Origin: Promethearchaeota archaeon
Lineage (GTDB): Archaea > Asgardarchaeota > Lokiarchaeia > Sigyniarchaeales > SOKP01
NCBI GenBank assembly: GCA_048937405.1
Contig: JBHLNF010000003.1
Coordinates: 64,001 to 128,000, forward strand
Direction of reading: 5' to 3'
Length of the DNA: 64,000 nt
The position numbers were made by a program, and so were the translations under genes. This document shows, piece by piece, positions 13,053-64,000 of the stretch (positions within the stretch are counted from its first letter, which is position 1; each line of letters opens with the position of its first letter). Under the pieces are notes generated by a model that ran no database searches, was not told the DNA's origin, and was given only the letters and a program-made list of their open reading frames with translations.

Positions 13053-13303
13053 AAAACATCATTTTTTTTTATTTTTTTTTTATTGTTAAAATATAATATA
13101 TTTTCAGTTCTATTAAATGAATAGCATGTTATAATAGTGTTAGGTTTGTCATCCTTTTAAACTTTTTATCAAATTTTTTTCGAATGTTTTACAAAATTAT
13201 TGCTTTTGGGTGTATTTTCTATTGTTTTATTATGATCATCGATTATGGATAGATCCAGAGTGGTAATCGATGAATATAATATAAGCTATATCTCTTGTTT
13301 CCA

Positions 13304-13837: not shown

Positions 13838-14037
13838 TATAAAGTTAAAAGCTAATTAGGAGAATCATTTAAAATTTAAAAAGTTGAACCAAAATGATGG
13901 GTAAATTGGTAGATTAATTATTATAATATGGTATAATAGTTGATTTCAAAAGTAAAATTTAATAACATTTTAATTTTAATTATTTTAGAATCTATTTTAT
14001 CCGGAAAAGTAATTATTAAAAGAATAGAGGAATAAAA

Positions 14038-15963: not shown

Positions 15964-16003
15964 AGAAATAACAGATTTTTTTTTTTCAAATTTTATTAAT
16001 ACA

Positions 16004-16786: not shown

Positions 16787-16803
16787 TTTAAAATTATTTT
16801 TGG

Positions 16804-17802: not shown

Positions 17803-17805
17803 TTT

Positions 17806-21667: not shown

Positions 21668-21904
21668 TTATCTTTTTCTCCTTCTTAAGTTATCATGAAA
21701 TTGATACTTATTTAAAATAATTTCTTTATATGTTTTTTCAGGATATCTCTCTTTTTCCTTTTGAATGTAATCTTGTAATCCTAATTCATAGATTTCTAAA
21801 AACATTGATTCAATTTTTTTTAAATCTGTTTTATTCCTTAACTCTATCCTTCCTTTAAAATCTCTAATAATTTTTCTAAATTTATTATCTGATTTAGCTG
21901 TCAT
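21668..21904 (-). CDS. Small basic protein abutting the nucleotidyltransferase; possible antitoxin-like partner
   Basis: 78 aa; its stop codon directly adjoins the ATG of the nucleotidyltransferase. Confidence 0.6.
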   Translation of the reverse strand: MTAKSDNKFRKIIRDFKGRIELRNKTDLKKIESMFLEIYELGLQDYIQKEKERYPEKTYKEIILNKYQFHDNLRRRKR

Positions 21905-22394: not shown

Positions 22395-22456
22395 TATTTT
22401 TCATTAAGAGTATAAAGAAAATTTAAATAAAAATGATCAAATAGGTGCCAGATTAT

Positions 22457-25400
22457 ATGAGTAAAATAAAACAGGAACCAAATGAACTTAAATTGTCTAA
22501 TATGAAAAACAAGGAGAGATTCTACAACATAAAATTATCAAAAATTACTAATAAAAATAGGCTTTGTCAATATAATGGACAATTTAATGAAATTAGAAGA
22601 TTTAGGCAATGGCTATATAGAAATAATCTGTCTTTTTTAAAATTTAAAGAAGAGTTGCAAAATATCTGGAGTATTTTCAAGCGATATGAAGAAACTAAGA
22701 TGTACACCACACATGATCTTCTTTTTATGAAGATAATTAGACAACGAAATATTAATTCCTCCTCACTTATCATCTCTAAAGAATTCCATTCTATTTTGAA
22801 TAAAGAGAAAATGCAATTGTATCAATTATTAAAAAGAATTTCTGAAAATTATAAGCATCAAACTCATGTAGGGTTTTTAGATTATTATTCTTCAGATAAT
22901 CAAGAAAGACCTATTACCTCATCAAGTGCAAGTGGTCTATTAACTAAAGAAATAGGATGGAAACAAAATCGAATTATTCCCTATGATGATCCAACAAGTA
23001 GGGAAGTATGGGAGGAAAACCAAATTCTAGAATATCACCTTGCACAAAAAGAAGAAATTACTCAAAAACGCTTATTGGAAAGAAAAAAACTTTATAAAAA
23101 AGATCTGCAAATACAAAAAAAACTCGAAATAGAATACCGAACAAAATTAGATGAAGTCTCTAATGATTTACGTTGGATAAGATTGTTAAACAATAATAAT
23201 GATTTTAATGTTATATCAATTCTCAAGGAAAAGGAAAAATTTGAACACTTTTTTGTAGAAAACAACTTACCAGATCAAGAGTATATTGCTTTTCTTAGAC
23301 TATATAAGGAGATAAAAAAAAGATATAATTTTTTAAAAAAAATCGGATACCAAAAACACACTTCGTTATCATATAGAGAGGCTCAGTTAAATTTCCTAAA
23401 AGAACAGGAATGTTTAATTAATGATTATTTTAATGGTATTAAAAGAAATAATGAATTTATAAAGCAAACATCTTCTTTCAATAAACAAGCCCGTCAATTT
23501 ATTAGAAACATTATTAAAAATAATTCCTCTCTTAATTTAACTTCAGAACACCCAGAATTCTTGTTTATTAATCATGATAAAGAAAAGATTGAGAAAATAC
23601 CATATTACTTAGATTGTATAAACGATTTGTTGATTTTAGCTCAAAATAGAAAATATGTTAAAAAAATCTTGACAAAGAATATTAATTCTATTAAAATACA
23701 GAAGAAGAACAATCATAAAAAACAAGAGAAATCATCAGAAAAAGAAAACCTCTATTCAAAAAAAATTTTTAAAAATAAATTTGCCAAAAATTTTGTGAAA
23801 TCTTTACCTTTGATAAGTTTGGTTTTGGTACCTCTTTTAATGGTGTTTTCTCCTGGAGATAACTTTTATTCTGGATATTTATTAACTTACTTTCCTTTTA
23901 TGCAAGTTCTAATCTTTACTATTTGTCTTTTAATATACACTTGGGATCTAGTTTTGTCAAAAGCTCAATTATTATTTGTTACAGTATCGCCGATAATTCT
24001 TTTTAATCTTATAGTACTGATCAGTGAAATTTTCGGAGCGAGAGTATCTTTGTATATAACTCCAATTATGCTGATCCCTTCATATTTTGTATTAAGAAAT
24101 ATCCCTAAAAAAATCGAACGTGAATCTGAAAATTTAAAGCATTTATACCACAAAAGTAAAATATTAATTCTGTGGGTTTTGCTATCTATATCTTTTGTTC
24201 TTTTTTGGATAATTTTTGTTTTTTTTCCACGACTTCTATTTGTACCTGCATTTATAATAATTGTATCTATTGTTTTGTTTACTAAAAAATGTAATTATCA
24301 AAAGAGCAGAATTGTTGACCAATTAAAGAAAAAGTACTTTGACTATCGCTATCGAAAAAGTTCTCAAAAAGAGTTTTCATGCTATAATGCGAACAATTAT
24401 AGAGCCGCCCTATTAATGGCAATATTTCTTGTATTTATGCCATTACTTTTCTCAATTAATTCTATTGTTCGTATTGACTGTCCAGATCTTCAATTTTCGC
24501 GAATACCCCAGGATTTAAGACTTAAAACAAGTGATATAGATTATGATAACTTAGAATATCTTTCTTCACTCGATGTATTAGAAGACTTATCATTCAATGG
24601 CAAGTTTATTGCAAGATGCCAAATATCACCTAATTGGGGTGCAAGCGCTTCAATTAGAGTTCGCTTAATACCTAAAAACGTGACTCCAGTAGAAGGGTAT
24701 CAATTAAAAAAATTCTATGATATTTATTCCAAAGATAAAACAGGTCCTTTAAAAAATTATAGTCTAATTACTCATATTTCATTAAACGAATTAGATCTAT
24801 TACCAGGGAAATATGAGGCAAAGGTATACTACACTGAAATATCAGGATTTTCATATAGAATTGCTGAACCAAAAATATATGAAGTAACGTTAGAAAAAGA
24901 TGCCTTGAAAATCCTACCCACCCACCCATTTGATTTAGGAGAAGATGTAAATTACGGAGCGGTCTATACTTTTGAATATGAAAATTCCTGGAATATCACT
25001 TTTGATGGGAGATTAACAAATTCATTGGAAGAAGGTATTCAAGCAAATTTAACCTTATTTCTTGAGGACCATAACAAATGGGTCAATATTGCAAATATTA
25101 CCACGACAGAAAATGGCTCATTTTTCTTTGAGTATGCAAAATTTGGCTCCTTCGAGGTAAATGCGTTGGCTAAAATTGAGTTTGCGGGGGATGATCTTTA
25201 TGAACCCCTTATGTACGAAGAATATGCGGGACTTGAATTTTCCATTGATGGAGGAAGATTTTTTAGGGATGAGGATGGAGATGGGTATCCTGATTGGCCA
25301 TATAGTTTGTATGATTTGCTTGAAGCGCTAAAAGCGCAGGATGAGTATTATTCGAATGCTCTCGATTTTTTTGATGAGTTTGATACGGGGTACGGTTCTA

Positions 25401-28400
25401 CCACAACAGAAACCATCCACGGTTATACCGGTACCTTGAACGGCAATACAGCATGGGGATCGGGTGTTCGGGATTACGGACTTGTTCTTGATGGAGATGG
25501 TAATATTATGTATGATATCAATGAGTTCTTTAATATCTATATGTATGCTACTTATTCAATTCTTTCCTATGAATATTTTAGTGGTGGTGGAACATATGGA
25601 TCAACAGGTTCACCGACCACCACTTCCAGCGAGATAAGGACAGCGGGTGGTGAACCTGTAGCTGAGATATATTCTGCCCAGACTGCACTGGATATCAATA
25701 GAATAGTGGGTGGTGGGGGTAGCTTTGATAGCACCTTATCGGCGGGAACCGTAGCAAATGTAAATAGGGACATATACATAAGTGAATCAACAGAGTTACA
25801 TCCTACATCGTCGACCACAAGTGTTGAGAGAGGTGGTGAGGACTGGTCGAACCCAGGGAATGTGCAGTCCCAGGATAATGTCTACGCTTCTGCCGATTTG
25901 GTAGAAGGTGGTGGGAGCGGTGTTATCATTGAGGATTATGTGGATAGTGATACCTCGGATGTGGATGGGGTACCTGATGAGGGGACCTTAAGTGATTTCA
26001 ATAATATGCAAACGGTGGATGCCACCCATTCGACTATTACCGAGGAGGGTATTGGTGGTAGTGGAGGTACTTTCGGGTATGGGATAGGAGAGGGGAATAC
26101 AGTGACATCAAACGGCTTTTTGTATGTGGCCGGTGTTACGGGTTCCACGATTGCCACCTTTACGGGAGATGGGGTGGTAGAGAGTATTTGGATAGACATT
26201 TATGAGGATTACGGTGGAGTGCTTGATTTTTATCTGGGTACCATATCTGGAACTAGTTTTGTGTTCAAACAGTACGATCCGATTTGTTCTATTGATCCTT
26301 CGGTTGTGGGTTGGCAGGAGTTTACAGCCCCTGATGATTTTACGGCGTTTATGGTGGAAGCGGGGGATGTGTTGGGCTTTTATAGCAGTACCAGTGCGGT
26401 AACGGTAGGAAGATCTAGTTCGGGGTCGTATATGTCCTATCATTACAGTAGTGCGACTCGTCCGTATAGCGGAAGTGTTACGCTTAGCTCTTCGACGAGT
26501 AGGAGATTAGAGATCTTGGCAACGGCAAGTCCGCTTTCGTCTGATTATGTAGCAGAGCAAGAAGTGCAATTTACTGATGTAATGGACTTTATGGCAGTGG
26601 AAGAGCTGTGTATTAACACGGGTAGTATGGGTGCAGAAGACCTGGCGGTGGAATACTGGGACGGAGATTCTTGGGAGGTGATTGCCTCAGATTTAACCGC
26701 ATCAGCCTGGAATAATTATTCTGTGTCATTAGATAGTTCAGCTTTTACGGTTCGTTTTAGCGACGGTACCAAGACGGGAGATACCACTACGCAGGATAGC
26801 TGGACTATCGATGCAATGTTGTTGAAATACTCCGGGGGGGGTGTTAATGAGGATTATGTGGATAGTGATACCTCGGATGTGGATGGAGCGGGAGATCTCG
26901 GAGCATTGGCTGATTTTGATGATATGAAGGCAACAGATAGTTCTTATTCGACGCTGACCGAAACATCTGGATCAGTGGTGTGGTATAATGGTACGACTCC
27001 CAGTGATTTAATATTGGTTACGAGTCCTGATATATCCGGTACAGCGGTAACTTATACCACTTTTAATGAGGGCAATCTTGCTACTGATGATGATGCGTAT
27101 GGAGGTTTTAATATCCAAGACGAAGGTAGTGGGAATCCAACACAACAGGTGTTTCACTATTTTGATTTTGATATATCCGGTCTTGGAATTAGCGGTTCTG
27201 AATTAGACCAATTAATATTTGAGGCGGAGTATTATTTCCACGGTGGTACCTCTCTTGCTCCTGTTTCATCTGCTGATGTGTGGGAAATGGAAGGTAATTC
27301 CATCGATAGCGCTATTATGATTTATGATTGGACTGCATTATCGTGGTCGGTAATGGGGAGTATGGATTTCTTGAATGAAAACAATCTAGCAAATTGGGAC
27401 CAAACCAGTGATACAAATGCCGAGAGACCGTTGATTCGATCTAAAACCTCGGGATTCACGGACGGTCATATTAGTGGTAGTGGAATTATCCGCATCATGT
27501 GTAATATCACAGGCACTTTTCAAGGAACTTCCTATGACGGAGTCGGAGTAGTTGATTATGCTAAAATAGATTTCTGTTACTCCTCGGGAAGTGAGTATCA
27601 ACTGGAGCAGGAGGTACAATTTGAAGACATTCCTGATGAGGCGGATCAGATGCCAATAAAGGAGTTATGTATTAAAACGGGTAGCATGGGAGCGGAAGAC
27701 TTGGCGGTGGAATACTGGAACGGTGATTCTTGGGAAACATTATTCTCAGATCTAACAGCTTCTTCGTGGAATAATATCAGCATCTTAGGTTATCTATCAG
27801 CACCGACCTTTATTATTCGTTTCAGCGATGGTGCCAAAACTTCGGATGTATCAGGAGATGTGTGGAATATCGATGTGGTGTTGATTCATCTTGAGAATTC
27901 CGGCGGCGGAAGTGGTGGAGGAAACTCAGAATCGGATTGTTTACGTATTGATTTAGATTACATTTTGCCCGGAGCGGATCTTATAGAGGGATTAACTATA
28001 GATGGTATTGAGGTTCGCATTGATAGGCACGCAAGTGTAGCAAGTGCTCTTCTGGATTATTGGGTACAGCTACGCAATGCGTCGGGTCCGAAAGGTGATA
28101 ATAAGGCAAGTGCGGTGTACTGGGATGCTACTGACACGGACACCTATACGGTGTATGGAAGTTCGTTCGATGTATGGGGAACATCATGGACGGTAGCCGA
28201 GATTAACAGTGGTGGATTTGGAATAGACATAGTGGTAAACGCAAGTACTAACAGTATTGCTTATATAGATCATGTGATTGTATTGGTGTATTATTCAGGG
28301 TTTGTGTCTGGAAGGGAGTGGCAGAATCCAACAGGTGCGCAGGTACAAGATGATATAGTTACCTTTACAGAGTTTGAGGGATTGATCGAAAGTGAATCTG

Positions 28401-31400
28401 ATTGGTTGAGGTTAACTGATTTTGGCTTTATGATCCCCAGTACGGCAATCATTACCGGAATTGAGGTGGCTATGGATAGGTATGCGAATGTAAGTTCTAT
28501 TTATAGTAATGGTTTGTATTTACTCAAGTCTGGTGTGGAAGTTGGAATTGGAAAAGATATTGGAACTATATGGGACACCGTTGATGATGATAATTATGAT
28601 GTGTTCGGAGGTCCCGGAGAGTTGTGGGATGAGTCGTGGAGTTATTCTGATATTAATGATCCTGAATTTGGGATTCAATTGTCCGTATCTTCTATAGAAT
28701 CTTTTGATAGAAAAGCCTGTATTGATGATTTGAATATAACTATATATTATATCGAGCCGGAAGTTACTGCTGAGGTGTGGTTTGATGCGTTAAATTCCTT
28801 GGCACAAGACGATAATAGCGTCTATGTAGTGTTTAATGCAACGACAGAAAATAGTTCAAATTGGCTACGGTTGAGTAATTTTGGCTTTTCACTTCCCTCT
28901 GATGTGGTTATTAATGGTATTACGGTGGAGGTAGATAGAGCGGCAACTCAGAGTGCTGCGATCAGAGACGGCGAGATCTATCTGCGGAAGACAAGCGGTC
29001 GGGTTGGTGATAATAAGGCAAGTGCCTCGTGGTGGGATACTGTGGATGATGATGTGTATGATAGCTATGGTGGATCAACAGATTTGTGGGGGACTACATG
29101 GTCTTATTCTGATATTAACGATCCAGAGTTCGGAGTGGATCTGTATGTGGAAAATTTCGGAACGGGTGATGTCAATGCCAGTATCGATCATATAGTAATT
29201 ACGGTGGATTATACTCTACTCCCTCAGAATCAGCAACCCTGGGTGAATTCTCACTATGCGGGAGATCAGGATGATGATGAAACTTATGCCTCGTTTAGCA
29301 CGTCAACAGAAAGCAGTTCTGATTGGCTGATGCTGACAAATTTTGGTTTCTCTTTGCCATCAGATGCGGTAATCGATGGTATTACAGTAGAAATAGATAG
29401 GTTCGCAACCCAAGCATCTTCGATTAGAGACGTGGCGGTGTATCTAATGAATACAAGTGGCCCAGTTGGTGATAATAAAGCCAGCGCCTCGTGGTGGGAT
29501 ACCATGGATGATGATAACTACGATAGTTATGGCGGTGCATCTGATTTGTGGGGGATTACTTGGGACTATTCAGATATCAACAATCCTGATTTCGGTATGG
29601 TGATGTATGTGGAGTATCTAGGGTCTATGGCTACTGAAGCCAGAATTGATCATGTTCGTATTATCGTCAATTATACGATTCAGCCTACATTACAGCAGGA
29701 TAGCGGTGTTGTACGTCCTGATGGGGATGTTATGACTCAGTGGAATGCGTCGACAGCAGGGGATCATTATCTCTTACTTAATGAAGGTATTATCGATCCC
29801 ACGGTACCCAATACTAATAGCGGGTATATCTTTACTTCCAGTTCCAGTAGTGGATCATATATTATTGATGAATTTACGATGGAAACACTTGATATCAGCA
29901 GCGGAAATATCACACAAATCGAGATTAAAGTCTACGGCAATGAAACAATAAGTATTGATTCTACCATAGATGTATATTGCGGTGGTAGCTGGCTAGGAGC
30001 GCAACAACTAAATATGGGCACAAACGGATGGTATACCTATACCTGGAATGGGTTAAGTTTATCACAGGCGGATTTAGATGGAATGCAGGTAAAGTTTAAT
30101 TCAATCGTTCCCGATCCGATTCTTTCCAATCCAACCTACGAAGATTTTGATTTTGTACAATACGGAGATATTGTAGATCATATTCTCGGAAGTTCAAATA
30201 GCCAAACCGTAATTACCTCGTGGATTTTTCCAACCGCATTAACTTCAAATGTGAGTGAAAACGGATTGAATAATGTATTTATTTCAAAAAATGGTAATCT
30301 AGAATTGGGAATCAGCGAAGATGGACATCTACAGGTGTATATGAAGACAGTCGGTGCTGAAGCAACCGCCGAATATGGTACTTTTGGAGGAATAGACTTG
30401 GACCAATGGACCTATATTGCGGTGCGATATGATAAGGGTGATGTTGATGTGCTTATCGGGGATGCTTGGTACACCTCGGCAATCGGTGATGTTCCAGAAC
30501 CATGGAACGGTGGTGGAAATTTTATTAGTGGTGCTGAATTTATCATCGGTGCAGAACTTACTAACTATATCTGCTTTACAGGAAGATTAGATGAGGTAAG
30601 TCTGTTTAATCGATCGGTTTCTGATTCAGAGATTGAGCATCACGGTACTCGATCAATTCCTCCCTCACTTGATTTTCATCTTGAGTTTGAAGAAAATACT
30701 GGTTACTCTACCTTCGATTCCGTGCATAATTACGAAGGGACTTTAGAAGGAAATACAGCGTGGGTTAGTGGGTATGATGGTTACGGTCTCAATTTTGATG
30801 GACAGGGTACTATTGTGTATGAAGAAAGATTTGCATCATATATGTATGCCACCTATTCGATTATTTCCTATGAATATTTTAGTGGTGGGGGTAGCTTTGA
30901 TAACACCTTATCGGCGGGAACCGCAGCAAATGTGGATAGGGATTTAGGTAGTAGCAGTACAGAACTTACTCGGTCTCCAGCTACAACGACCTCGGTTGAC
31001 AGAGGCGGTGAAGACTGGTCGAACCTAGAGAATGTGCAGTCCCAGGATAATGTCTACGCTTCTGCCGATTTGGTAGAAGGTGGTGGGAGCGGTGTTATCA
31101 TTGAGGATTATGTGGATAGTGATACCTCGGATGTGGATGGAGTTCCTGATGAGGGGACCTTAATTGATTTCAATAATATGCAGGCATTGGATGTAATATA
31201 TGCAACTATCACAGAGGTTGGTGATAGTGGAGAGGGAGGTACTTTCGGGTACGGGATAGGAGAGGGGGATACAGTGACATCAAACGGCTTTTTGTATGTG
31301 GCTGGGGTTACGGGTTCCACGGTTGCCACCTTTACGGGAGATGGGATGGTAGAGAGTATTTGGATAGATATTTATGAGGATTATGGAGGAGTGCTTGATT

Positions 31401-34400
31401 TTTATCTGGGTACCATATCTGGAACTAGTTTTGTGTTCAAGCAGTACGATCCGATTTGTTCTATTGATCCTTCGGCTGTGGGTTGGCAGGAGTTTACAGC
31501 CCCTGATGATTTTACGGCGTTTATGGTGGAAGCGGGGGATGCGCTGGGCTTTTATAGTAGTACCAGTGCGGTAACGGTAGGAAGGTCAAGCTCAGGGTCG
31601 TATATGTCCTATCATTACAGTAGTGCGACTCGTCCGTATAGCGGAAGTGTTACGCTTAGTTCTTCGACGAGTAGGAGATTAGAGATCTTGGCAACGGCAA
31701 GTCCGCTTTCGTCTGATTATGTGGTGGAGCAAGAAGTGCAATTTACTGATGTAATGGACTTTATGGCAGTGGAAGAGCTGTGTATTAACACGGGTAGTAT
31801 GAGTGCAGAAGACCTGGCGGTGGAATACTGGGACGGAGATTCCTGGGAGGTGATTGCCTCAGATTTAACCGCATCAGCCTGGAATAATTATTCTGTGTCA
31901 TTGGATAGCTCAACCTTTACCGTTCGGTTTAGTGATAGTACCAAGACGGGAGATACCACTACGCAGGATAGTTGGACTATCGATGCAATGTTGTTGAAGT
32001 ATTCCGGGGTGGGTGTCAATGAGGATTATGTGGATAGTGATGCCTCCAATGTGGATGGAGTTTCTGATTTAGGAAATTTAATTAATTTTGATGATATGAA
32101 GGCAATAGATAGTAGTTATTCGACATTGACCGAAACATCGGTAGGTGGGAGTAATATAGAGTTTGTTGATTCTACCGAAGTAATCGGTAGTCAATCAATG
32201 TCTTTAAGTGTTCCTTCTGTACAAAACGGAGATTTTATGATCACGATTGTGGCTCATTCTGATGATAATCCTACTACAACACTTACACCTCCTTTGGGAT
32301 GGACATTGCAACGGGATAAGACAAATATGGGTACAACAGCGGTTTCACCTCCGGTGATTTATGTGTATTACAGAATTGCGAATAATGAACCGTCGTCTTA
32401 TATCTGGAGTTGGGATACCGCAGGTGGTGTAGTGGGTGTGTGTCTGGCTTACAGAAATGTTGATACTGTTACAGCAATAGATATTGATTCTTTAAATGCC
32501 CAGACGAGTTCTGGAACAGATGTCATATCACCGAGTATAGTGACCAATAATGATGGGGATTGGATAATTTCGATAGAGTGGCATGACGATGATGATGGTG
32601 TAACTGGTCCTTCTGATAGCGGGTTCACTGTACGACATGATGTGCAAACCGCAACAGGAGGGAATGGATTGGGGATAGGTGTTGGTGATGAGTATCGAGC
32701 TACTGTTGGTTCAACAGGAACGAGAACTTGGACCCTTTCCTCTTCTGAGGAGCGGAGCGGTATTATGCTTTCCATTACTCCAGCTGCGGGTTCAAGCGAA
32801 TATCAACTGAACCAGGAGGTGCAATTTGAAGGCATTCCTGATGAGGCGGATCAGATGCCAGTACAGGAGTTATGTATTAAAACGGGTAGCATGGGAGCGG
32901 AAGACCTGGCTATGGAATACTGGGACGGGGATTCCTGGGAAGTACTTGCTTCTGATTTAGTAGCCTCTTCGTGGAACAATATCAGCATCGTAGGTTATCT
33001 ATCATCAGCGACCTTTACCGTTCGGTTCAGCGATGGTACCAAAACCTCGGATGGATCAGGAGATGTGTGGAATATCGATGCGGTGTTGATTCATCTTGAG
33101 AATTCTGGTGGTGAAGGAGGAAGTGCTGAATCAGATCTTTTACGATGCACTGATTTTGATTTTTCCAGTATTCCAGATACAGCAACAATAGATGGTATTA
33201 CTGTAGAAATTGATAAGTATACGGATGTATCTGATGCTATTTCAGATTATTCCATACGCCTTAGAAATTCAGGTGGTCCAAAGGGAAGTGATAAAGCCAG
33301 CGCTTCGTATTGGTCTACCTCTGATACTGATACTTACACGGTCTATGGCAGTTCAACTGATCTGTGGGACACTTCATGGATGGTTTCTGAGATTAAAAGC
33401 GCAAATTTTGGGGTAGATATTATAGCAGAAACGGGTACCAGTGCCAGTGCGTTTATTGATCATGTACAGATCAAAATAAATTATATCGAATCTTTTTCAG
33501 GTAGGGAGTGGCAAAATCCGAGTAATGCAAATACTCAGGATGATGTTGACACTATTGTGGTATTTACTACTACTTCTGAAGATACTTCTGATATATTACG
33601 ACTTACAAATTTTGGATTTATAATTTCTGATATCGTAAATATTGTAGGTATCGAAGTGGGATTTGATCGTGAGGCAAATATTACAAATTCTATCACCGAT
33701 GGCTATCTAAAATTATTGAAAGCTGGATCTCCAGTAGGAGATGATAAAGCGACGACAACACCTTGGACGGTTGGAGACGATGATACATATGATATATTTG
33801 GCGCTTCCGATGATCTGTGGGGTACTTCGTGGACATATTCTGATATTAACGATAATGGGTTTGGAGTGGAGTTGTTTGTAAATTATACGGGTTCTTCCAA
33901 TGCTGAGGCTAGAATTGATCATATCCATATTACCGTGTATTATACGGTACCACCATCTTTACAGCAGGATAGTGGTATAATACGTCCATATGGGGATGTT
34001 TCTGCTCAGTGGAATGGATCTGATGTGGGAGATCATTTCAGTTTATTGAATGATATTGTTATAGATCCTACCATTCCAGATATCAACCTCGGATATATTT
34101 TTTCTTCCAGTAGAAGCTCTGGACCGTATATTGTTGATGAATTTACTATGGATACATTGGATATCAATAATGGTAATGTAACGCAAATTACCATAAAAGT
34201 ATACGGCAATGAAACCGATATTGATTCTAGGGTGGATGTGTATTGTGGTGGTAGTTGGTTAGGAGCTAAACAGTTGAATATGGGTTCGATCCCAGGATGG
34301 TATATTTATACTTGGAGCGGATTAAGTTTATCTCAGGCTGATCTTGGAGGGATGCAAGTGAGATTCAACTCGACCGTTCCCACGCCAGGACCAATAGAAT

Positions 34401-52400: not shown

Positions 52401-55400
52401 AATTACACATCGGTGATAGAGTAGTATCATTTGGTAACCAAGAGGTCACGATACTTGAAGAAGACTCTTTCTTAGTAAGAAACGTAGATGATGTCTATAT
52501 TACTTTTGCTGCTGATAAACGAATAGGGGAACCTGACCGTACGATAATTCTCGATCAGTTACAGTTGTTTTTACTCAACGAGACGCGAATAAAAGTTCAA
52601 AATGATTATGAGATATTTACAGGACCGCACCTTTCTCACAGTAATATGGAATTAGTTGGCGGTAATTGGGGCAATGAACCGTTCCTCGGCAATAATACGA
52701 TACATTATACCGCCCATAAATCACTGAAAACTCCCGTATTCGGAAGATCAGATGATGATGTGTATGTAAATCTCGAGCTCGAGGATTTGAAGTTTCAGTT
52801 TGAGGTGTTCCCACCAGAGGAATATCCGAATTTTCCAACAAATGAACCCAATGTTGAAGGAAATTATGATGACTATGATATATATTCACTGGATTATGAA
52901 ACAAGTAGGTTCAAGAACACGGCATTGGATGATATTCAAATCCCATTGATATCTCCTTTTGAACTGAATATAGGAAATTTAGATATAACGGATATTTATA
53001 ATCTAGAACTTAAGTTGGCGCTTGATGTAGATATCGAACTTGAAAACCGCGCATATGATAGCATCTGGAGTTGGAGATGTAGATTAGTAATGTATAATTA
53101 TACTTCTGGCAAGTGGCAGGATATCGATGCTGTAATCAGGGCGAGACATCTTTTTGAAGACAGGGATGTGTGGTCTCCAGAAGATTTTTCTGATCATCCC
53201 CTTGCCTATATTCAAAATACAACGCAAAATAGATTTTTACCAATAAAAAACTCAAATGACATAGAACTGAAAAATCCATTCAGATTGTTAAATCTGAATT
53301 CAGATGTGATACAAGACGGTATTATGAAGCTTGCATTTATTTCGTACATACTTCCTGGTGATTTGTGTATCGATTCATGGGGATACTTCAGGTATGAACG
53401 CAGCGATCCGAACATTCCTATTAGGGTTTCTCAATCATTAGATATAATGGATTGTATATTCATGTGGGATACAAAAGAAACACTGTACGCAGAAACTTCT
53501 GTAGTGACATCTTTAGATACCTACAACAATAGAGTAAACCTAAGTGAAATAAGTAATCTAGGAGAAATCTTAACATTAACGGGAGTAGTATATCAAGACG
53601 GATCGATACAACGATATCCAATTTTTGATTATATTATAAATGATGATAATGAACTTCGATTTATTTCTTCTTTCATTAAAGAAGAATTGATAAACGAAAT
53701 AGAAGTAGAATATGTTCCTGATGTAGTACTTATACATAATCCTTCTGGTCTTCCGCAGTATGATGGAATGTGGTATATGCCGAATTCTTCTCTTGTCGGT
53801 GCTTATAATTTCAGTTCCCCATTTTTCGTAAGCGAGTTATGGGTCAATACTACATTATACAATACATGGATGGGTACTGAAGATGTAGGATATGTTGTGG
53901 ATTCCAATGACTACGGTATGTATGTTAAATTTGATAATGATCCTCATCCTGATTCCAATGTACACGGATCTATAAGATATGAAAATATCAATGAAACCTC
54001 ACTAGTTTCAACTTTTACGGCAGGAGATGAATTATTGTATAAGTATGATGTGTTGGAAAGTGATCAGGAGATCATTGATGGTATATTGCATGTAAATATG
54101 AAAAGCGGTCTTGATGCTCTCTATTTAGATAGAAAAGTGCTTTCTGAAAGTTATGAACTTGTATTTCATCTATGGTGTATTGATAGCATGGGAAACAGGG
54201 ATTTTATTACGGTGTTTTCACATGATATAAATAAATATGACTTAGGAGTTCAAGATCGGGTTCTTGACATCACTATAGGAGATCTTAATTTATCACCAAC
54301 AGAATTGGCATTATTGAGCAAGTCATTAACAGAAGGGTATGATTTAATTGTTGAGGTAAATTCTACTATGGCTGGATGCGAAGTCATAGGAGCCACTTTT
54401 CAAGGGAATTATATTCAGGAGTTAACAGATGTAGATTTTAAAGTGAAAGCTCATGAAGCCGAACTGCATATCAATAATACGGTTGTAGAAGTTCCATATG
54501 TTGAAGAGTATCATAATAATGCGATGTTAACAAAAGTTGCGCCATCTGTTTTCATGTTTGATGCACTCAGGTATGATACTGAGTTTTACATTACGGATCT
54601 ACGTACGGATTCAGAATCGATTCCAGAAGATGAGTATATACTCAATATAGATCAAAATATAATTATATTACTCGGGGTTGATTGGAGTGATTATTCTGGA
54701 TTGCTTTTTGCTGATGTGGTATATAAATTATTTGAATGGCACGACGGTTCTGTAATAACACTGGAACCCATTACGTTAACCTTTCAAGGTGATTTCATTA
54801 ACAATATTGTGGATAATTTGTGGCTCGGTATTGAGTTTGACCCAAACTGGATACCAGGATATGAGATAACACAAATAAACGAGCAATCTGGTAAACGAGT
54901 TATCACTGCCAAAGAGAACGGAGCCGAATACATCGAATTTTACTTCTATAATTATATAGATGAAGTATGGGAAAACACTAAATTCGTTACTTATGATGGT
55001 ACATCATTTAATCAATTTGAATATGTTATTGATAGGAACTTTATCTTATTTGAGAAGTTCTTCAACCGTACAGATGTCCAAAACGAATTTGAAATGCAAA
55101 TGATGATAGGCCTTGATGAAGATCTTAATCAGTACCAATACATTTCTTCAACAACAAGATTTAAAATAAATGATATACAAACAATGATTTTCTACTCTCC
55201 ATCAAATGAAGGCCGAGTTGTAAGTCCAGAAGTACACTTTGATGTTGATTTAACTGAATATTTTGATAAGAATATAGACATCGATGAAATTGAACTTTCA
55301 TTAGAATATTTCAGTGAGTTAAATATGAACCAAACGATGATTTTTGCTGAACATGCATTGATTGAGGAAGGATATCGCTTTTACATCCAAAATGAGTATT

Positions 55401-58400
55401 TAGAATTTGAGGAATTTATATTAGATGATAATAAAGTACGCATATCCAAAGAAGTGTTAGATGCTAACTTGTTCTATGATATTAACGCTCAGAAGTATTT
55501 ACTACGGTGTAAATTGGAATATTTCTGGGATTGTTTCTTCATCATTAATTTTGCAACAGGTAATAAACTGGAAGTCGTTGCTGAATTGACATTAGATAAA
55601 TATGATCTTAGTGTATTTTACACGAAGTATGAGACGACAAGGATATCAGCAGATGAGTATGATATACCCTTTGATATGGCCGCTATTGATGCACCGAATT
55701 ATATTGAAAATGTTGTTGAAGGACATTATCCAGCGACCTACAGTTTTGAAAATGAAGTTGGCGAAACTGATACAAATATTGAGTGGATCGATGATGTTTA
55801 TTCTGGAGCTCATGCAGAAATAATTAATAGTCATCAAGGTCATAATGCAGTTTTGGAATTTAATGTCGATGCTGGTTATCAATATGCAAAAATAAACGAT
55901 TTAAACCTAGATCAAGATTCTGGAACAGTTGAATTTTGGCATCTCTATGACACAGAGACCTTTCAATGGCAATTTAGAGACTTTAGTGGCAATTATTTAT
56001 TCCAGATTAGAATTACTCCTACCCATATTACATTCTACTATGACGGAACTACTTCATATATTATTGATACTACCACCGAATGGGTACATATCAGAAGTGA
56101 CTTTGATTGCGCGAGTGATTCAGTAAGTTTTTATGTAAATGATTTTCTTATTGTTGACAATCAACCACTGGATAATAATAATTCATTAAATCAGGTGATT
56201 ATTCAAACTAATTCTAATTCAGCAAGCCGATGTTATGTTGACGCAATAGGTTATTCTTGGGATATCAATTATATAATTAATGATAATAAACATGAAGATA
56301 CAAAAGTAGCAAAACTTCTTGCAAATGATCAAGAAATTGATATAGGAGTGCTTGGTGGATTTCTTAGGAATATTGATTCACGACAGAGATTAATGTTAAG
56401 GCAAAAACTCTTCTATAATTTTACAGAAAGTGAACTTGACAGTTTTCAAATATTATTGGATCAAAAATATTCAGATGTACAACTAAGATTCATGAATCCA
56501 ATTGGTTGGTTAGAATACCCTATTAATGATCGATTTGGTAAATATAGCACCTCTATTTCAGTTCCGATCTATCCTGATGATTTTAATTTAATTAACGGAT
56601 TATTAACGAGGCAAGGAAGTCTTTTGGGTATCAATAACGATTATCATACAATTGTATCAGAATTATTACGAACCGAGTATCTAAAATTAAGCGAAATGCC
56701 AATAGCAGGTGACTTTAATATCACTTTGAACTGGGGAGATCTTGAGTATATTAATGGGGATTTTGCATCATTTGCTTCCGAAATTTCAGGTTCGTATTAT
56801 AGCAGTGATTATAAAATTCCTAACCAAGTACAATTCTCATTTACTGAAGGTGTGTGGAACTACTATGATAAAGGAGCTCTCAACTATGATGATAATCAGA
56901 ACTCAATGATTACCGCAACATCAAGTAATAGTAGTTCAGAATACGAAATTCCAGTATACGGACATTATCCTGCTACCTATAGTTTCGAAAATGAGATACC
57001 AGAAACTTCGGGAACAGATATAGGTTTTGTAGATCAATCGAGTGGAAATGTAGAGATTATCGATAATTTTAACAATCATTATCATGTTATTGAAGTAAAT
57101 GATACTGACTCATCTGGACATTATTTCAGACATAATATTCCGACAGCGCTATCTGAAGGGTCTATAGAATTTTGGATATGCGCATCCGATGTTACTCAAG
57201 AAGTAGAGATCAAACTTATGAATACAATCACAACAACTGTTTGTAGAATTCATATTTTAGCTGATAAATTTCAAGCATTTTATAATTCTCAATGGAATGA
57301 TCTAACCACCATTCCTTATGATAACACATGGTATCATATAAGAATAGATTGGGAGCAAATTAATAATAAATTTTCTGTTTTTATAGATGGTGTAGAGGAG
57401 GTTTCATATAAAACAGTTGAGGATAACGGTAATGTGAAATCATTCCAAATGATGAGTCAAACCACAGATCAAAACTATTTAATATATTTTGATGCATACG
57501 GATGCCCTGAAGAAGATTTAAGCTACACTCTCGGCGATAATAAAAAGGAAAGCGGTAACTTTAATGTAATTACAGGAAATCTCATCTATGGTGATCTTGC
57601 CGATATAGATAGCCAGGTATCAACTATATCAGTTACAGATCCAGGTCTTCCAATGATACAAGGGTGGGATTATGTACGAGATATTACATTAAGTCCACCA
57701 ACCCCAGAAGATAACTATCAGGTAAAGGTGCAATTAGATAGCTCAAACTTTGATTATTCTAAAGTAAAATCAGGTGGTTCTGATTTACGATTTTATGCTA
57801 GTGGCGTATTGTTGAATTATTGGATAGAGTCATGGGATATAACAGGATATTCTCTTATATGGGTAAATGTCCCAGATGCAGGAACGTCTGTGATTAACAT
57901 GTATTACGGAAATTCTGCAGCAGTGGCAATGAGCAACGGGTCGGCGACATTTCCTTTTTTTGATGATTTTGAAGGAACAAGTTATGATAACAATATATGG
58001 TATGAAGTATATGATACTACTGGAGAAATTAAGGAAAGATATGTAAATGTATCTGATAGTATAGCTGAATTATATATAGAACTTGACCCAGATGATTGGG
58101 GTGGACAATATACTCCAGAGATGCGGTGGGAAAGAAGTGCTGTTGGATGGCTTGATTTCTGGTCAACAGGGGGGACTTATGGAAATAGGTATCCGAATAG
58201 TCTTTGTTTCCTTGAAGACGATACCATGACAAGGAGGGATGGTGGAGAGATTGAAACAACTAGCAATGTTGCAGCTTCTGAATGGGTTTGGACTATTAAA
58301 GAGGTTGTTTGGATCAATTCTTCATCAGTCAAGTTTTATGAAAATGATACTTTTCTATCAGAGCACACAAATTCTAACGCTATACCAATTTCTGAAACAG

Positions 58401-61400
58401 TACCGATACAATTTTATCTCGGCTGTGGATCCTATCCAAACGGTTGGGATCATATGCTAGGTTTAGAGTCTATTGATAACACTCTCGGTGCTGAAGGTAG
58501 AGCTCTAAGAAGTTTTACTTTAAATGAGTGGAATGAAGCTACTGATGACGATATTCTCATATGTCTAATTGATTGGGTCTTTATTTATAATATTAATGAA
58601 ACGGAGTCAGTCGCTAGCATAGGATCTGAGTCCTTACAGGAATATTCTGTAAATGCAGAAATTGAGTGGTCTGTTGATGATCTAAATCTTATATCAATGG
58701 ATTATTTAAGTTTTGAATATGATGATATTCCAGAGGGGTGGAATTATTTAGGGACTCATTTTGATGTACAGGCTCAAGATGGGCGTCCAATGGGAATTAC
58801 CTGGGATGGTACACATTTTTGGGTTGTTGGAGATGGTAATAGTGAAGTTTATCAATACACAACTGCGGGAGTGTATTCCGGTACTCATTTTGATGTAGGA
58901 AGTCAAGCTAATTACCCAGTTGGAATCACTTGGGACGGAACATATTTCTGGATTGTATGTACATCAAATGATGAAGTCTATCAATACACAGCTGCGGGAG
59001 TGTATACTGGTACTCATTTTGATGTAGCAGGTCAAGATACGAGTTTAGGTGATATTATATGGGATGGAACTTATTTATGGGTTTTAGGATTTGTTAACCA
59101 AGAAGTATATCAATATACGACCGCAGGGGTGTATACCGGAGTTCATTTTGATGTTACAGGTGATAGTGGAATCACATGGGACGGTATCAATTTCTGGGTC
59201 CTTTCAGATAGTAATGATGAAGTTTATCAATATACAGCTACGGGAGTGTATACTGGTGTTCATTTTGATGTAGGAAGTCAAGGAAATCAGATAATAGGTA
59301 TTACATGGGATGGAGGAAATTTATGGGTTATGCATGGAGAAGGACCAGGAGGAGGTAATCCAGAAGTTTACAAATATATATTCTTTGAATTTAATTTTGA
59401 TATATGGAATTATAATGCTGAAGACTGGCAGGATATTTCAAATGAAACTAGTCCATTTGCACTGACTACCGATCATTATAATAGCAGCAATACTTTAAAG
59501 GTTCGTTATATAGCTTATTCTGGTAGTCCTTTTAATATCACCATTGACCAATTACACATTGATTATACACAAGCTACTGATTATATGGTTGATGCGGTAG
59601 CAGAAATAACCATTCAGGATGATGTGATGTATGAATATCAACAAACAAGTGCTAAACAACCAGCAAATACACACTTATGGTGGGAACTTGGTGATGGTGT
59701 ATTTTATCTTGTAGATTCAACCGATCAGTCCAAATTGTATGTGACATTGGATGAAGGGAAGACCTGGGCTCAGGTAGATGTCGATCCTTCGGATACTTCA
59801 GGAGATAGTAAATCGCGAGATCATAAGATTCATTCTGCTTGGCATGATAGAATAAATAAGATTATCTGGTTTTTGGATTGTGATAATGGTGGTACTGCTG
59901 ATAATTTTGATGTTTGGAAATTAGATTATACAGTAAGTAAAACGAGTCCAACTGTAACGGAAGTAGGGACTTCAAGTGGGGCAGATGCAAATAGTGTGTA
60001 TGCTTATGATATTTTTATGATTGGTAGTAATGTGTTTGTTATAAATTTGGAAGAACGTTCTTATACTCAAACTATGGTAATTTGGGACGTAGATACTGCT
60101 CCTTTTACTGAGAAAGATACAGATACAAGCGAAGGTGTAAATAGAAACACATATATGTTTGGTGCAGTCGTAGGAAACATTTATTATAATTGCTTCGAAG
60201 TCGATAGTTTTAAAGTATTTGAATATAATGACTCTGCAACCACAATCTCATGGACATCAGAAGCATTATATACTCCCCCTTCTAACAGTAATTTAAAAGC
60301 AATGACGTATGATGGTTCAGATGTAATTTATATGATTGGAGATAGATGGGTGGTTGATCGATATGTAAACTATTTACTTTCTTATTCAATTTCAGGAGGT
60401 TCATGGACGGTAGGAGGAGAAGAAACTAATGTTGCATTAATGCTTAATAGAAATGCAGAAGGGTGTGCAAAAGCATATCATCTCGAAAATGGAACTATAT
60501 ATTATATCACCACAAACGGTCTTGAAGTAATGTATGACGGTAGTTCTTATTTTGATGATGATGTTATCGCAATTACTGATACTTATATTATGACTGATAG
60601 TGATATTATTTACAAACTTATCGGGCAAAATGATATAAATATTGAATCTGTAGACTATCTATTTTTTGACCATATTGCATCTGTAGGCACCAGCTTTTTT
60701 GTTTGGAATTATACTGCAGGTTCATGGCAAAATATTTCCAGTGAGTCAAGTCCTTATTCTCTTAAAACCGATCATTATGATGGAAATTACACTATACTTG
60801 TGCGATATCTCACAGGAGTATCTATCAGTTCATTTGATTTGGATATTGATCAATTAAAAGTAAATTACACGAAACTCGCTAATCTCTATGATGTACATGC
60901 TGAGGTGGTGTGGGATATTACGGAAGTTATTCAATCAGTGGAATATTTGATGTACTCGCATAAAACTTCAAGGGATGTAAACTGTACAATGGAAATTTGG
61001 GACTTTACCTCTCAGGAATGGGATCTGGTAAACAGCTCTATCAACTCTATTGGATTTTTCAACACATCCTTTGATTTGAGCGATCCTCGATACCGTAATG
61101 CAACCAATCATGTGAAAATTCGGTATACAACTAAGGGGCTTCCTACAGAATTTAATCTTCTCATTGATAGATTGCGGGTGGATTACACCTCAATAGATGA
61201 GATTTATGGTATTGATGTTGAAGTTACATGGAATGTCTCAGATGAACTTTTCTATTCATTAGATTTCTTGAAATATTCCTATAGAACTAATGAGTCAATT
61301 GATGTAGATCTTGATATTTATAACTACACCTCGCAATCATGGGTAGGTATAGAAAGTGTAATAAACTCAGAGGTATTTAATGATGAATCATTTACGCTCA

Positions 61401-64000: not shown

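What the first reader, a model, noticed from the sequence alone, without database searches (positions are those of the whole stretch)
22457..64000. Hidden giant gene: more than 41.5 kb of open reading frame (at least 13,848 aa) missed by the ORF track
Seen: one frame stays open from 22445/22457 to the window edge, so two-thirds of the window is a single gene. The track shows only short shadow ORFs, apparently because it needs a stop codon. Established: archaeal genes of this size are rare. Inference: it is a giant surface adhesin or scaffold of a Lokiarchaeia-like archaeon. Staying intact while two nearby small genes have decayed suggests purifying selection.
Basis: partly seen in the sequence, partly recalled or inferred. 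Interest (0 to 1): 0.92.

Follow-up and report, generated by a model that had tools for sequence, protein, structure and literature searches.

The report
Giant Asgard surface protein, swappable tail
Two-thirds of this window is the first part of one intact 20,615-codon gene of a Loki-type Asgard archaeon, encoding a 2.4-MDa membrane-anchored, sugar-coated surface protein whose far end is a hypervariable, strictly sugar-site-free tail, which suggests a device for touching, and perhaps handing cargo to, neighbouring cells.

Summary
The frame opened at 22445/22457 has no stop up to the window edge. On contig C13 it runs on to 148304: 20,619 codons (20,615 from the ATG), 61.9 kb, 1.38% of the genome, with no Ns.

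The gene is real. Collinear homologues at about 40% identity, with open frames of 9,000-14,833 aa, occur in 28 of 399 Asgard genomes, 26 of them in its own family. Ours is the longest, through lineage-specific internal duplications.

Architecture:
- a lysine-rich cytoplasmic N-terminus;
- seven membrane helices;
- an acidic ectodomain of about 17,000 aa carrying Laminin_G_3, DUF2341 and CBM domains, rich in N-glycosylation sequons;
- a conserved, non-repetitive core of about 4,300 aa;
- three conserved Gly/Ala-rich hydrophobic segments;
- a hypervariable C-terminal tail.

The last 2,683 aa hold no N-X-S/T sequon (about 22 expected). The tails of all 14 members together hold 0 against 117 expected.

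In a closely related pair, identity falls from about 83% to about 25% just past the last hydrophobic segment.

Seven of 13 loci have an LRR gene alongside; ours has small GTPases.

The best reading is a contact-dependent surface device with a polymorphic, glycan-free tail. Delivery and toxicity are untested.

This scan has already reported relatives on other DNA (e1-2678978, e1-2304329, e1-3241968).

The parts
22422..22429 (+). TTTAAATA, an archaeal TATA-like box 28 nt upstream of the ATG
   Evidence: read from the sequence; its function is inferred
22444..22447 (+). GGTG, a possible ribosome-binding site 9 nt before ATG 22457; it overlaps the alternative GTG start at 22445
22457..64000 (+). 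First 13,848 codons of the giant gene. The gene continues to C13:148304, 20,615 codons in all, about 2.36 MDa, pI 4.3
22457..23800 (+). Lysine-rich N-terminal region (aa 5-452 in GTG numbering), pI 9.7, predicted cytoplasmic; sequons at the chance level (5 observed, 4.5 expected)
   Evidence: weakly conserved with G003
23801..24457 (+). Seven hydrophobic helices (aa 453-671) with positively charged loops at 551-572 and 613-653. Predicted N-in, C-out membrane anchor
   Evidence: hydropathy and the positive-inside rule; 38-46% identical in G003, G014 and G007
24458..25492 (+). First conserved ectodomain block (aa 672-1,016)
   Evidence: 45% identity to G014 and 33% to G003 within the same alignment as the anchor
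25493..34402 (+). Lineage-specific expansion (aa 1,017-3,986). It is a segmental duplication of about 5.2 kb at 87-93% nucleotide identity, with 462-nt sub-repeats. It is G/S/T/D-rich, with GC 41-44% and GC3 33-39% against 20-30% elsewhere in the gene
34415..34897 (+). Laminin_G_3 (ConA-like lectin) domain, conserved in G003 and G014
   Evidence: Pfam E = 1.5e-23 for the 5,000-aa piece
43730..44173 (+). Laminin_G_3 / Laminin_G_2 domain
   Evidence: Pfam E = 9.7e-23
57776..58003 (+). DUF2341 domain
   Evidence: Pfam E = 2.2e-21
62762..62986 (+). Sialidase-like carbohydrate-binding module
   Evidence: Pfam E = 1.6e-06, 28.6 bits against a cut-off of 27
63161..63661 (+). Laminin_G_3 domain
   Evidence: Pfam E = 1e-29
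21089..21670 (-). Decayed minimal-nucleotidyltransferase-like gene with two in-frame stops, between fumarase and the giant gene; a 78-aa ORF lies just upstream at 21668-21904
19531..20910 (-). Class II fumarase, the left border of the variable spot that holds the giant gene
   Evidence: Pfam Lyase_1 E = 7e-96. Fumarase and ATP-citrate lyase are 2.5-6.8 kb apart in three relatives and 65.8 kb apart here

Best explanation
This is a real, intact gene of 20,615 codons. Its product is the longest member found of a conserved family of giant Asgard cell-surface proteins.

Shown or directly predicted:
- a lysine-rich cytoplasmic N-terminus;
- a seven-helix membrane anchor;
- an acidic, Cys-poor ectodomain of about 17,000 aa. 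It is enriched in N-glycosylation sequons and studded with ConA-like lectin domains (7 Laminin_G_3 stretches, DUF2341, a sialidase-like CBM) and Dx[DN]xDG calcium loops;
- a conserved, non-repetitive core of about 4,300 aa (aa 14,560-18,813);
- a distal module with three conserved Gly/Ala-rich hydrophobic segments (aa 17,635-17,668, 18,115-18,167 and 18,741-18,775);
- a hypervariable C-terminal tail. In ours the tail ends in a domain with a papain/C39-like Gln...Cys20380...His20566...Asp20586/20588 pattern.

Inferred: the body is a glycosylated tether, hundreds of nanometres long, that binds glycans or surfaces of other cells. The last 2,683 aa are exported but are kept free of N-glycans by selection, because they must insert into or cross a membrane.

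Proposed mechanism, not shown: on contact, the hydrophobic module engages a neighbouring cell's membrane and presents or delivers the polymorphic tail. The tail acts as an effector or as a kin-recognition determinant. Adjacent cytoplasmic proteins (LRR proteins in most relatives, small GTPase-domain proteins here) would be its partners or antidotes.
For: Real gene:
- There are no stops or Ns over 61.9 kb, with a chance probability of about 10^-762.
- G003 (12,745 aa, complete) and G014 (at least 11,803 aa) are collinear with ours at about 40% identity. This includes one alignment of about 4,400 columns, with even conservation and few gaps.
- The family is present in 28 of 399 Asgard genomes, with frames of 9,000-14,833 aa.
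- The copies of the internal duplication are 87-93% identical, so they are not an assembly duplication.

Surface location:
- hydropathy and charged loops;
- pI 9.7 for the N-terminus against 4.1 for the body;
- lectin domains;
- sequons enriched in the body of the family, 320 observed against 197 expected.

Glycan-free tail:
- Ours has 0 sequons in the last 2,683 aa against about 22 expected, with normal Asn (6.9%) and Ser+Thr (12.9%). Ser or Thr never occupies N+2 at any of 161 sites.
- This run is five times longer than any other sequon-free run in the protein.
- The 14 family tails, of several unrelated types, hold 0 against 117 expected.
- The cytoplasmic N-terminus is at chance (5 against 4.5), and genome ORFs have observed/expected = 1.14.

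Polymorphism:
- Homology among all members ends about 2,450-2,700 aa past the query piece, and the tails fall into several types.
- The G212-G224 core is 86% identical, but only 309 aa of the tails align, at 32%.
- The drop from about 83% to about 25% is abrupt, about 100 aa after the last hydrophobic segment.
- Our last 767 aa match nothing in 40 relatives. The last 1,200 aa have 5 weak hits among 1.84 billion representatives.

Neighbours:
- LRR proteins are adjacent at 7 of 13 loci, while LRR genes are about 1% of genes.
- A related small ORF follows three members that share one tail type.
- Our downstream GTPase-domain gene has no close homologue in 30 genomes of the genus.
- Imm-LRR and Tox-PL-C39 are recognised classes in polymorphic toxin systems (PMC3482391).

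Peptidase hint:
- the aligned Cys/His/Asp pattern;
- a weak DUF3335 'Peptidase_C39 like' match in a homologue;
- a language-model neighbour named 'Peptidase C39-like' at 0.75.
Against: - No tail, ours or six others, matches any Pfam or NCBIfam toxin, nuclease or other domain.
- The peptidase call rests on a motif pattern only, and the model of that domain is poor (pLDDT 44.5).
- The hydrophobic module has no confident structural match (Foldseek E at least 0.09; VIA Z at most 8.8 on a generic helical hairpin). 'Membrane-inserting' is therefore an inference from composition.
- No orphan tail cassettes or paralogues exist in this genome.
- Tail types mostly follow the core tree, and tails within a type remain weakly homologous. 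Fast in-place divergence is not excluded; the synonymous-site test was inconclusive.
- LRR neighbours are on the opposite strand in three loci, and ours has no LRR gene.
- No expression, read-level or protein evidence could be obtained.
Confidence: 0.55

Rival explanations
1. It is a pure adhesin or structural surface filament. The protein only tethers the cell to partners or surfaces. The distal end varies because it is the exposed tip, under pressure from viruses, grazers or changing ligands, and nothing is delivered.
For: - Lectin-type domains and calcium loops.
- A sequon-rich acidic body.
- No recognisable toxin domain in any tail.
- No orphan cassettes.
- Cultured Lokiarchaeia lack an S-layer and show complex surface proteins, some bridging protrusions (PMC9834061).
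Against: - An exposed ligand-binding tip has no obvious reason to exclude every N-glycosylation sequon over 600-2,700 aa in 14 of 14 members while the rest of the ectodomain is enriched in them.
- The tail has a cytoplasm-like, near-neutral charge, unlike the body.
- Conserved hydrophobic Gly/Ala-rich segments precede the tail.
- Cytoplasmic LRR proteins are the recurrent neighbours.
Confidence: 0.25
2. It is a two-ended membrane receptor. The hydrophobic segments at about 17,640, 18,115-18,167 and 18,750 are transmembrane helices of the producer cell. The ectodomain would then be a giant loop, and the variable tail would lie in the producer's own cytoplasm, where it signals to LRR or small-GTPase partners.
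For: - The hydrophobic segments are conserved, and net charge shifts from about -12% to about neutral exactly there.
- The neighbours are cytoplasmic LRR proteins, or GTPase-domain proteins in ours.
- Other giant Asgard receptors with cytoplasmic signalling tails were noted in this scan.
Against: - A cytoplasmic domain is never exposed to the oligosaccharyltransferase and should carry sequons at the chance rate. The N-terminal cytoplasmic region (5 against 4.5) and the genome's ORFs (ratio 1.14) do so. The tails hold 0 against 117 expected.
- The predicted helices are 42-69 residues long, more like hairpins than single membrane spans.
- A signalling tail would not be expected to diverge from 83% to 25% identity between close relatives.
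Confidence: 0.13
3. It is an assembly artefact or a dead relic. The long frame would result from mis-joined repeats or chimeric contigs, or the gene would no longer be functional.
For: - The genome is a 29-contig assembly with 5.7% estimated contamination.
- About 7,900 aa of lineage-specific insertions cannot be checked against homologues.
- Read-level validation was not possible.
Against: - There is no stop in 61.9 kb of 29%-GC DNA.
- Order and content are collinear with complete homologues on long contigs in other genomes.
- The duplicated segments are 7-13% diverged, which assembly errors do not produce.
- The contig is 328.8 kb long, with ordinary housekeeping genes on both sides.
Confidence: 0.03

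Closest known systems
Bacterial polymorphic toxin / contact-dependent inhibition systems (CdiA-type, Rhs, MafB; Zhang et al. 2012, PMC3482391)
   Same: - A very large surface-exposed protein with a conserved body.
- A sharp boundary, followed by a variable C-terminal region.
- Variable neighbouring genes, including LRR proteins (the 'Imm-LRR' class).
- A possible C39-like papain domain (the 'Tox-PL-C39' class).
   Different: - An archaeal host; classical systems are rare in archaea.
- Anchoring by an N-terminal 7-TM domain instead of T5/T6/T7 secretion.
- A body 5-10 times longer, mostly non-repetitive, with no FHA, RHS or other known repeats.
- Tails of 600-2,300 aa with no known toxin domain.
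- No orphan cassettes in this genome.
- Absolute avoidance of N-glycosylation sequons, which I did not find described for those systems in the paper I consulted.
Archaeal 'huge proteins' carrying Laminin_G_3 (survey class in PMC11573180)
   Same: - An archaeal protein of more than 5,000 aa whose only recognisable domains are Laminin_G_3 and its relatives.
- Function described as not understood.
- Lokiarchaeota contribute 12 of the 23 Asgard examples.
   Different: The survey lists domain content only. It does not describe this family's anchor, conserved core, hydrophobic module, variable tail or sequon pattern. Ours has seven LamG stretches spread along the body, not one near the N-terminus.
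Giant genes of Asgard archaea in West-Roberts et al. 2023 (bioRxiv 10.1101/2023.11.21.568195) and Wu et al. 2022 (PMC8813620, aloposon giants Otus/Ephialtes)
   Same: Very large Asgard genes. West-Roberts et al. note that archaeal proteins over 10,000 aa are rare and most numerous in Asgard. [quoted passage not shown]
   Different: Aloposon giants are tandem pairs of 3,000-6,000 aa, with a MinD/ParA gene set upstream and tRNA integration sites. Here there is a single gene of 20,615 codons, with no tRNA within 23 kb upstream or 17 kb downstream and no such gene set.
Hypervariable Ig-domain protein module of Thermococcales (PMC8416519)
   Same: An archaeal locus centred on a large surface protein with unique combinations of downstream genes, interpreted as conflict or self/non-self recognition.
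   Different: It has a different protein family (Ig domains), is far smaller, and belongs to a different phylum. I read the abstract only and ran no sequence comparison.
Giant bacterial RTX-type adhesins (LapA, MpIBP and similar); from established knowledge, not tested by search
   Same: Megadalton-scale, acidic, calcium-binding surface proteins. They are held at one end in the cell envelope and carry sugar- or ligand-binding domains far from the cell.
   Different: Those are built mainly from tens to hundreds of near-identical Ig-like repeats and are exported by type I secretion. Here most of the length is non-repetitive and no RTX or BIg domains were detected.

Membership tests
Giant Asgard surface-protein family defined here (G003, G014, G252, G244, G212 and others) | Collinear homology over the anchor, several body blocks and the core of about 4,300 aa | tested here: met
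   About 40% identity with collinear blocks, including one alignment of about 4,400 columns; 45-51% identity over the 1,200-aa core piece in 20 or more loci
Giant Asgard surface-protein family defined here | Conserved hydrophobic Gly/Ala-rich segments followed by a sequon-free variable tail | tested here: met
Polymorphic toxin systems (Zhang et al. 2012) | Conserved N-terminal and central region with a sharply bounded, variable C-terminal region | tested here: met
   (identity falls from 83% to 25% within about 100 aa in a pair whose cores are 86% identical)
Polymorphic toxin systems (Zhang et al. 2012) | C-terminal domain belonging to a recognised toxin superfamily | tested here: inconclusive
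   No Pfam or NCBIfam hit in seven tails. There is only a Cys/His/Asp motif pattern and weak C39-like hints for ours, and the model is of low confidence
Polymorphic toxin systems (Zhang et al. 2012) | Cognate immunity gene immediately downstream that co-varies with the toxin | tested here: inconclusive
   Neighbours differ with tail type: LRR at 7 of 13 loci, a small ORF after three members of one type, and species-specific GTPase-domain genes in ours. Three of the LRR genes lie on the opposite strand, and no binding or protection is shown
Polymorphic toxin systems (Zhang et al. 2012) | Stand-alone (orphan) toxin cassettes available for recombination | tested here: not met
   tblastn of the tail against the whole genome finds no copy outside the gene. 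Tested in this genome only
Archaeal Laminin_G_3 'huge proteins' (PMC11573180) | Archaeal protein of at least 5,000 aa with Laminin_G_3 as the main recognisable domain | tested here: met
   20,615 aa; seven Laminin_G_3 stretches above the Pfam cut-off
Aloposon giant genes (Wu et al. 2022) | Tandem giant genes, an upstream four-gene set with a MinD/ParA ATPase, and a tRNA integration site downstream | tested here: not met
   A single giant gene; the neighbours are TCA-cycle genes and GTPases; no tRNA in the window at 1-23000 or in the 17 kb downstream
Peptidase C39-like / papain fold (terminal domain, aa about 20,360-20,619) | Gln/Cys on an N-terminal helix and His plus Asp/Asn on C-terminal strands; a match to a family profile | tested here: inconclusive
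   The motif order is present and is conserved in 3 distant homologues, and the predicted secondary-structure order fits. There is no Pfam hit on ours, the DUF3335 hit in a homologue is below cut-off, and the PDB profile search is uninformative
MACPF/CDC or other beta-pore-forming folds (aa about 17,550-17,820) | Central bent four-stranded sheet with two helical clusters; a significant structural match | tested here: inconclusive
   The model shows four strands of 24-28 residues with two inserted helical clusters. The best Foldseek hits are E = 0.09-0.13 (PlyB pore, probability 0.66) and VIA finds only loose beta-barrel matches
Repetitive giant adhesins (RTX/BIg type) | Most of the length made of tandem near-identical domains | tested here: not met
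   Self-comparison finds strong repeats only in aa 800-4,000, weak ones up to 14,500 and none after that. No BIg or RTX Pfam hits

The most novel reading that the evidence does not exclude
The family is an undescribed archaeal contact-dependent delivery system. A glycosylated tether of up to 2.4 MDa, anchored in the producer's membrane, carries at its tip a translocon-like hydrophobic module and a glycan-free, rapidly exchanged effector cassette that enters neighbouring cells. In this genome the cassette ends in a papain/C39-like peptidase. The species-specific small-GTPase-domain protein encoded directly behind it could be its antidote or a decoy substrate, which would hint that Asgard cells attack each other's eukaryote-like GTPase machinery.
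Probability: 0.3. Interest if true: 0.9.

Novelty: new variant of a known kind. Interest (0 to 1): 0.72.

Why it matters
[quoted passage not shown] Cultured Lokiarchaeia have no S-layer. They show 'complex surface proteins' of unknown identity, some of which bridge protrusions (PMC9834061).

This gene family supplies concrete candidates for those structures. It spends 1.4% of the genome on a single protein. It also gives a simple, testable sequence signature: a sequon-rich body followed by an absolutely sequon-free, hypervariable tail after a hydrophobic module. That signature points to a function beyond adhesion.

If the tail is delivered to other cells, this would be a new, archaea-specific route of contact-dependent interaction, used for competition or kin recognition. 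It would be independent of the bacterial secretion systems and of contractile injection systems.

Even on the conservative reading, this is the longest member of its family found among 399 Asgard genomes. It also shows that ORF callers that require a stop codon inside the window miss such genes.

Tried and rejected
- **Binding of the terminal domain to the downstream GTPase-domain protein.** Complex prediction returned 'no answer' (score 0.00). This is not evidence either way.
- **Structure of the terminal 460 aa.** Mean pLDDT was 44.5, too poor for a fold search, so none was run on it.
- **Fold of the end-of-body module** (model pLDDT 58.7).
  - Foldseek against the PDB gave no hit below E = 0.09.
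  - VIA-align wide gave a best Z of 8.8, on a generic helical hairpin, and only loose beta-barrel matches.
  - The ESM Atlas gave TM scores of at most 0.35.
  - My MACPF/CDC-like reading of the strand-helix order is therefore not supported.
- **Naming the tails and the core.**
  - Pfam on our N-terminus and C-terminus, on seven relatives' tails and on all 13 members of the end-of-body alignment at E up to 1 gave nothing usable.
  - NCBIfam on seven tails gave nothing.
  - PDB sequence and profile searches gave nothing.
  - The language-model atlas gave only a 0.75 lead for the C-terminus and nothing for the core.
- **Aloposon membership.** Rejected.
- **Orphan cassettes or paralogues in the genome.** None found.
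- **The conserved divergent upstream gene of G003/G014** (581/614 aa). It is absent from our genome.
- **Recombination versus in-place divergence of tails.** Four-fold-site identity for G212/G224 was 59-66% in the core and 47% in the tail, but only 32 tail sites were usable, so the test is inconclusive.
- **Tail types on the core tree.** Two of three types are monophyletic, so the tree alone does not prove exchange. Only the quick tree finished.
Full report
**Observation**

With open ends allowed, the window contains one ORF at 22445..64000 (+) of 13,852 codons that is still open at the edge. A script translation shows no stop and no N. A TAG at 22442-22444 closes the frame upstream. The first ATG is at 22457, preceded by GGTG at 22444-22447 and a TTTAAATA box at 22422-22429.

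The window is G000:C13:64001-128000. In the contig the frame continues to a stop at 148302-148304. That gives 20,619 codons from the GTG, or 20,615 from the ATG, with no N. The gene is 61.9 kb, 1.38% of the 4.47-Mb genome, and its product is about 2.36 MDa with pI 4.3. A random codon in this genome is a stop with p = 0.0815, so chance cannot explain the frame (10^-762). The next longest ORF in the genome is 3,512 aa.

**Is it real?**

An 800-aa N-terminal query found giant frames in other genomes of the genus. I fetched two of them. G003 has a complete frame of 12,745 aa. G014 has at least 11,803 aa and runs off its contig. Both are collinear with ours at about 40% identity. The shared blocks are the anchor, several body blocks and one alignment of about 4,400 columns covering our aa 14,559-18,813. 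That alignment has even conservation and few gaps.

A 1,200-aa core piece (aa 15,006-16,205) found the family in 28 of 399 Asgard genomes:
- 26 of 133 genomes in the same family, across nine genera, and one in another family;
- 9 of 53 genomes in the same genus;
- frames of 9,000-14,833 aa, two copies in several genomes, and a distant subfamily at 28% identity.

Ours is 39% longer than the next longest. Public protein databases hold only fragments of 2,196-4,879 aa on short contigs. Apart from one evidently spurious label, they are named 'hypothetical protein'. They come from Loki's Castle sediment and from MAGs labelled Lokiarchaeota, Helarchaeota and Hodarchaeales.

The extra length of our copy comes from lineage-specific segments, mainly aa 1,017-3,986, about 4,650-5,640 and about 11,360-13,000. 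These resemble other parts of the same protein. The largest is a 5.2-kb segmental duplication whose copies are 87-93% identical at the nucleotide level. That is too diverged to be an assembly artefact. It has raised GC3, 33-39% against 20-30% in the rest of the gene. Reads could not be consulted.

**Anatomy**

- **aa 1-452:** lysine-rich, pI 9.7.
- **aa 453-671:** seven hydrophobic helices with strongly positive loops at 551-572 and 613-653. This predicts an N-in, C-out topology.
- **aa about 672-17,900:** strongly acidic (D+E about 15%, K+R 3-6%) and Cys-poor. It carries seven Laminin_G_3 stretches, one DUF2341 and one sialidase-like CBM, plus six Dx[DN]xDG loops.
- **aa 14,560-18,813:** conserved but not repetitive, and it matches no Pfam, NCBIfam or PDB sequence.
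- **Three conserved Gly/Ala-rich hydrophobic regions:** aa 17,635-17,668, 18,115-18,167 and 18,741-18,775.

An AlphaFold model of aa 17,505-18,685 was built from 13 sequences, with mean pLDDT 58.7. It shows four strands of 24-28 residues with two inserted helical clusters, several small beta domains and two long helical hairpins. No fold search gave a confident match.

**The tail**

Homology among all members ends about 2,450-2,700 aa after the core piece, near our aa 18,750. It ends just after a conserved motif (EEIIxDGFIE...GFWLSSxxTSxRE), a Q/E/K-rich linker and the last hydrophobic segment, which has a near-invariant proline. Beyond that point the tails are 600-2,300 aa long and fall into several types.

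Our last 767 aa match nothing in 40 relatives. The last 1,200 aa have only five weak hits among 1.84 billion representatives. Three of those hits, together with our sequence, share a Gln...Cys...His...Asp-x-Asp pattern typical of papain/C39-like peptidases. Supporting hints are weak, and the model is poor.

Tails diverge far faster than cores. G212 and G224 are 86% identical in the core, yet only 309 aa of their tails align, at 32%. Identity collapses from about 83% to about 25% within about 100 aa after the last hydrophobic segment.

**The sequon test**

I tested that here.
- Our protein has 210 N-X-S/T sequons, and the last is at aa 17,936.
- The final 2,683 aa have none, against about 22 expected.
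- Asn (6.9%) and Ser+Thr (12.9%) contents are normal there, and Ser or Thr never occupies N+2 at any of 161 sites.
- No other sequon-free run in the protein exceeds 534 aa.
- Across 14 members, the tails hold 0 sequons against 117 expected. The preceding body is enriched (320 against 197).
- The cytoplasmic N-terminus is at chance (5 against 4.5), and the genome's ORFs of 400-3,000 aa have observed/expected = 1.14.

The tail types are unrelated in sequence, so this is convergent selection and not shared ancestry. A purely cytoplasmic domain would not show it. The simplest reading is that the tail is exported, and therefore exposed to the oligosaccharyltransferase, but must stay free of glycans.

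**Context**

The gene lies between fumarase and ATP-citrate lyase. These are 2.5-6.8 kb apart in three relatives that lack the gene and 65.8 kb apart here. In G003 and G014 the homologue sits in other neighbourhoods. The gene is therefore accessory and mobile on an evolutionary timescale. No tRNA or aloposon-type gene set is nearby.

At 7 of 13 loci the adjacent gene encodes an LRR protein, and the N-termini I printed show no obvious signal peptide. LRR genes are about 1% of genes in these genomes. Three members that share one tail type are followed by a related small ORF. Our gene is followed by two small-GTPase-domain genes, and the first has no close homologue in 30 genomes of the genus.

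**Interpretation**

I regard the following as shown or well supported: the gene is real, it belongs to a conserved family, and it encodes a membrane-anchored, lectin-bearing surface protein that is probably glycosylated.

I regard the following as inferred: the distal hydrophobic module and the glycan-free hypervariable tail act on or in another membrane.

The closest analogue in logic is a bacterial polymorphic toxin or contact-dependent inhibition system. Those systems include Imm-LRR immunity proteins and Tox-PL-C39 domains (PMC3482391). Membership, however, fails or is unproven on several defining features:
- no recognised toxin domain;
- no orphan cassettes;
- no demonstrated immunity.

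A kin-recognition role is equally compatible with the data. The rivals are a pure adhesin, a two-ended receptor and an artefact. They are weighed in their own sections.

**Literature**

- Giant Asgard genes are reported in general terms by West-Roberts et al. 2023 and Wu et al. 2022.
- Archaeal Laminin_G_3 'huge proteins' of unknown function are described in PMC11573180.
- Related archaeal conflict systems appear in PMC8416519 and PMC11566945.
- In the papers I searched I found no description of this family's architecture or of the sequon-free tail.
- This scan has reported relatives in other genomes and the same gene in the next window.

Noticed in passing
window:21089-21904 (-): A minimal-nucleotidyltransferase-like gene (G-G...D-x-D motif) has two in-frame stops, and a 78-aa ORF lies just upstream of it. 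It looks like a decayed toxin-antitoxin-type pair sitting in the same variable spot as the giant gene.
   Followed up: partly
window:25493-34402: The lineage-specific expansion has GC3 of 33-39%, against 20-30% in the rest of the gene and 17-28% in flanking genes. This could mean acquisition from a GC-richer relative or a different mutational history. No source was searched for.
   Followed up: partly
window:43445-52444 (aa 7,001-10,000): This body segment is depleted in N-X-S/T sequons (11 observed, 28 expected), unlike the enriched segments at aa 13,001-17,630. It may be a second region that is kept poorly glycosylated.
   Followed up: no
window:16804-19428 (-): Two adjacent paralogous ORFs of 332 and 540 aa (35% identity over 185 aa) have no Pfam match. 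They lie between aconitase and fumarase.
   Followed up: partly
L003:2365-4289 (C13:148365-150289): Two small-GTPase-domain proteins (285 aa, Arf-like; 291 aa, Ras-like with a weak HTH hit) directly follow the giant gene. Each has an N-terminal extension of 120-160 aa of unknown nature. The first has no close homologue in 30 genomes of the genus.
   Followed up: partly
L014:8198-9940 (G003) and L011:8661-10502 (G014): A divergently transcribed gene of 581/614 aa with no Pfam match is conserved (40% identity) directly upstream of the giant gene in two relatives. It is absent from our genome. It may be an accessory factor for some family members.
   Followed up: partly
G000 genome-wide: 67 of 961 ORFs of 400-3,000 aa contain no N-X-S/T sequon. 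These include ORFs of 1,104, 1,035 and 909 aa where 4.9, 5.3 and 7.8 sequons were expected. Some may be other exported proteins kept free of glycans.
   Followed up: no
G117:C57:9378-13019 (L025, L037): One family member (frame of at least 11,809 aa, 46% identity in the core) lies in a genome of a different taxonomic family of the phylum, while 0 of 14 and 0 of 31 genomes in other, closer families have it. This could reflect horizontal transfer or a binning error.
   Followed up: no
L002:12646-13200 approx. (aa about 18,215-18,400): The sequon-free conserved domain between the second and third hydrophobic regions has an invariant His (GHPGGYY motif) and a nearly invariant Cys (RPTCIDG motif) about 126 residues apart. 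A His-then-Cys processing peptidase is conceivable but was not tested.
   Followed up: no
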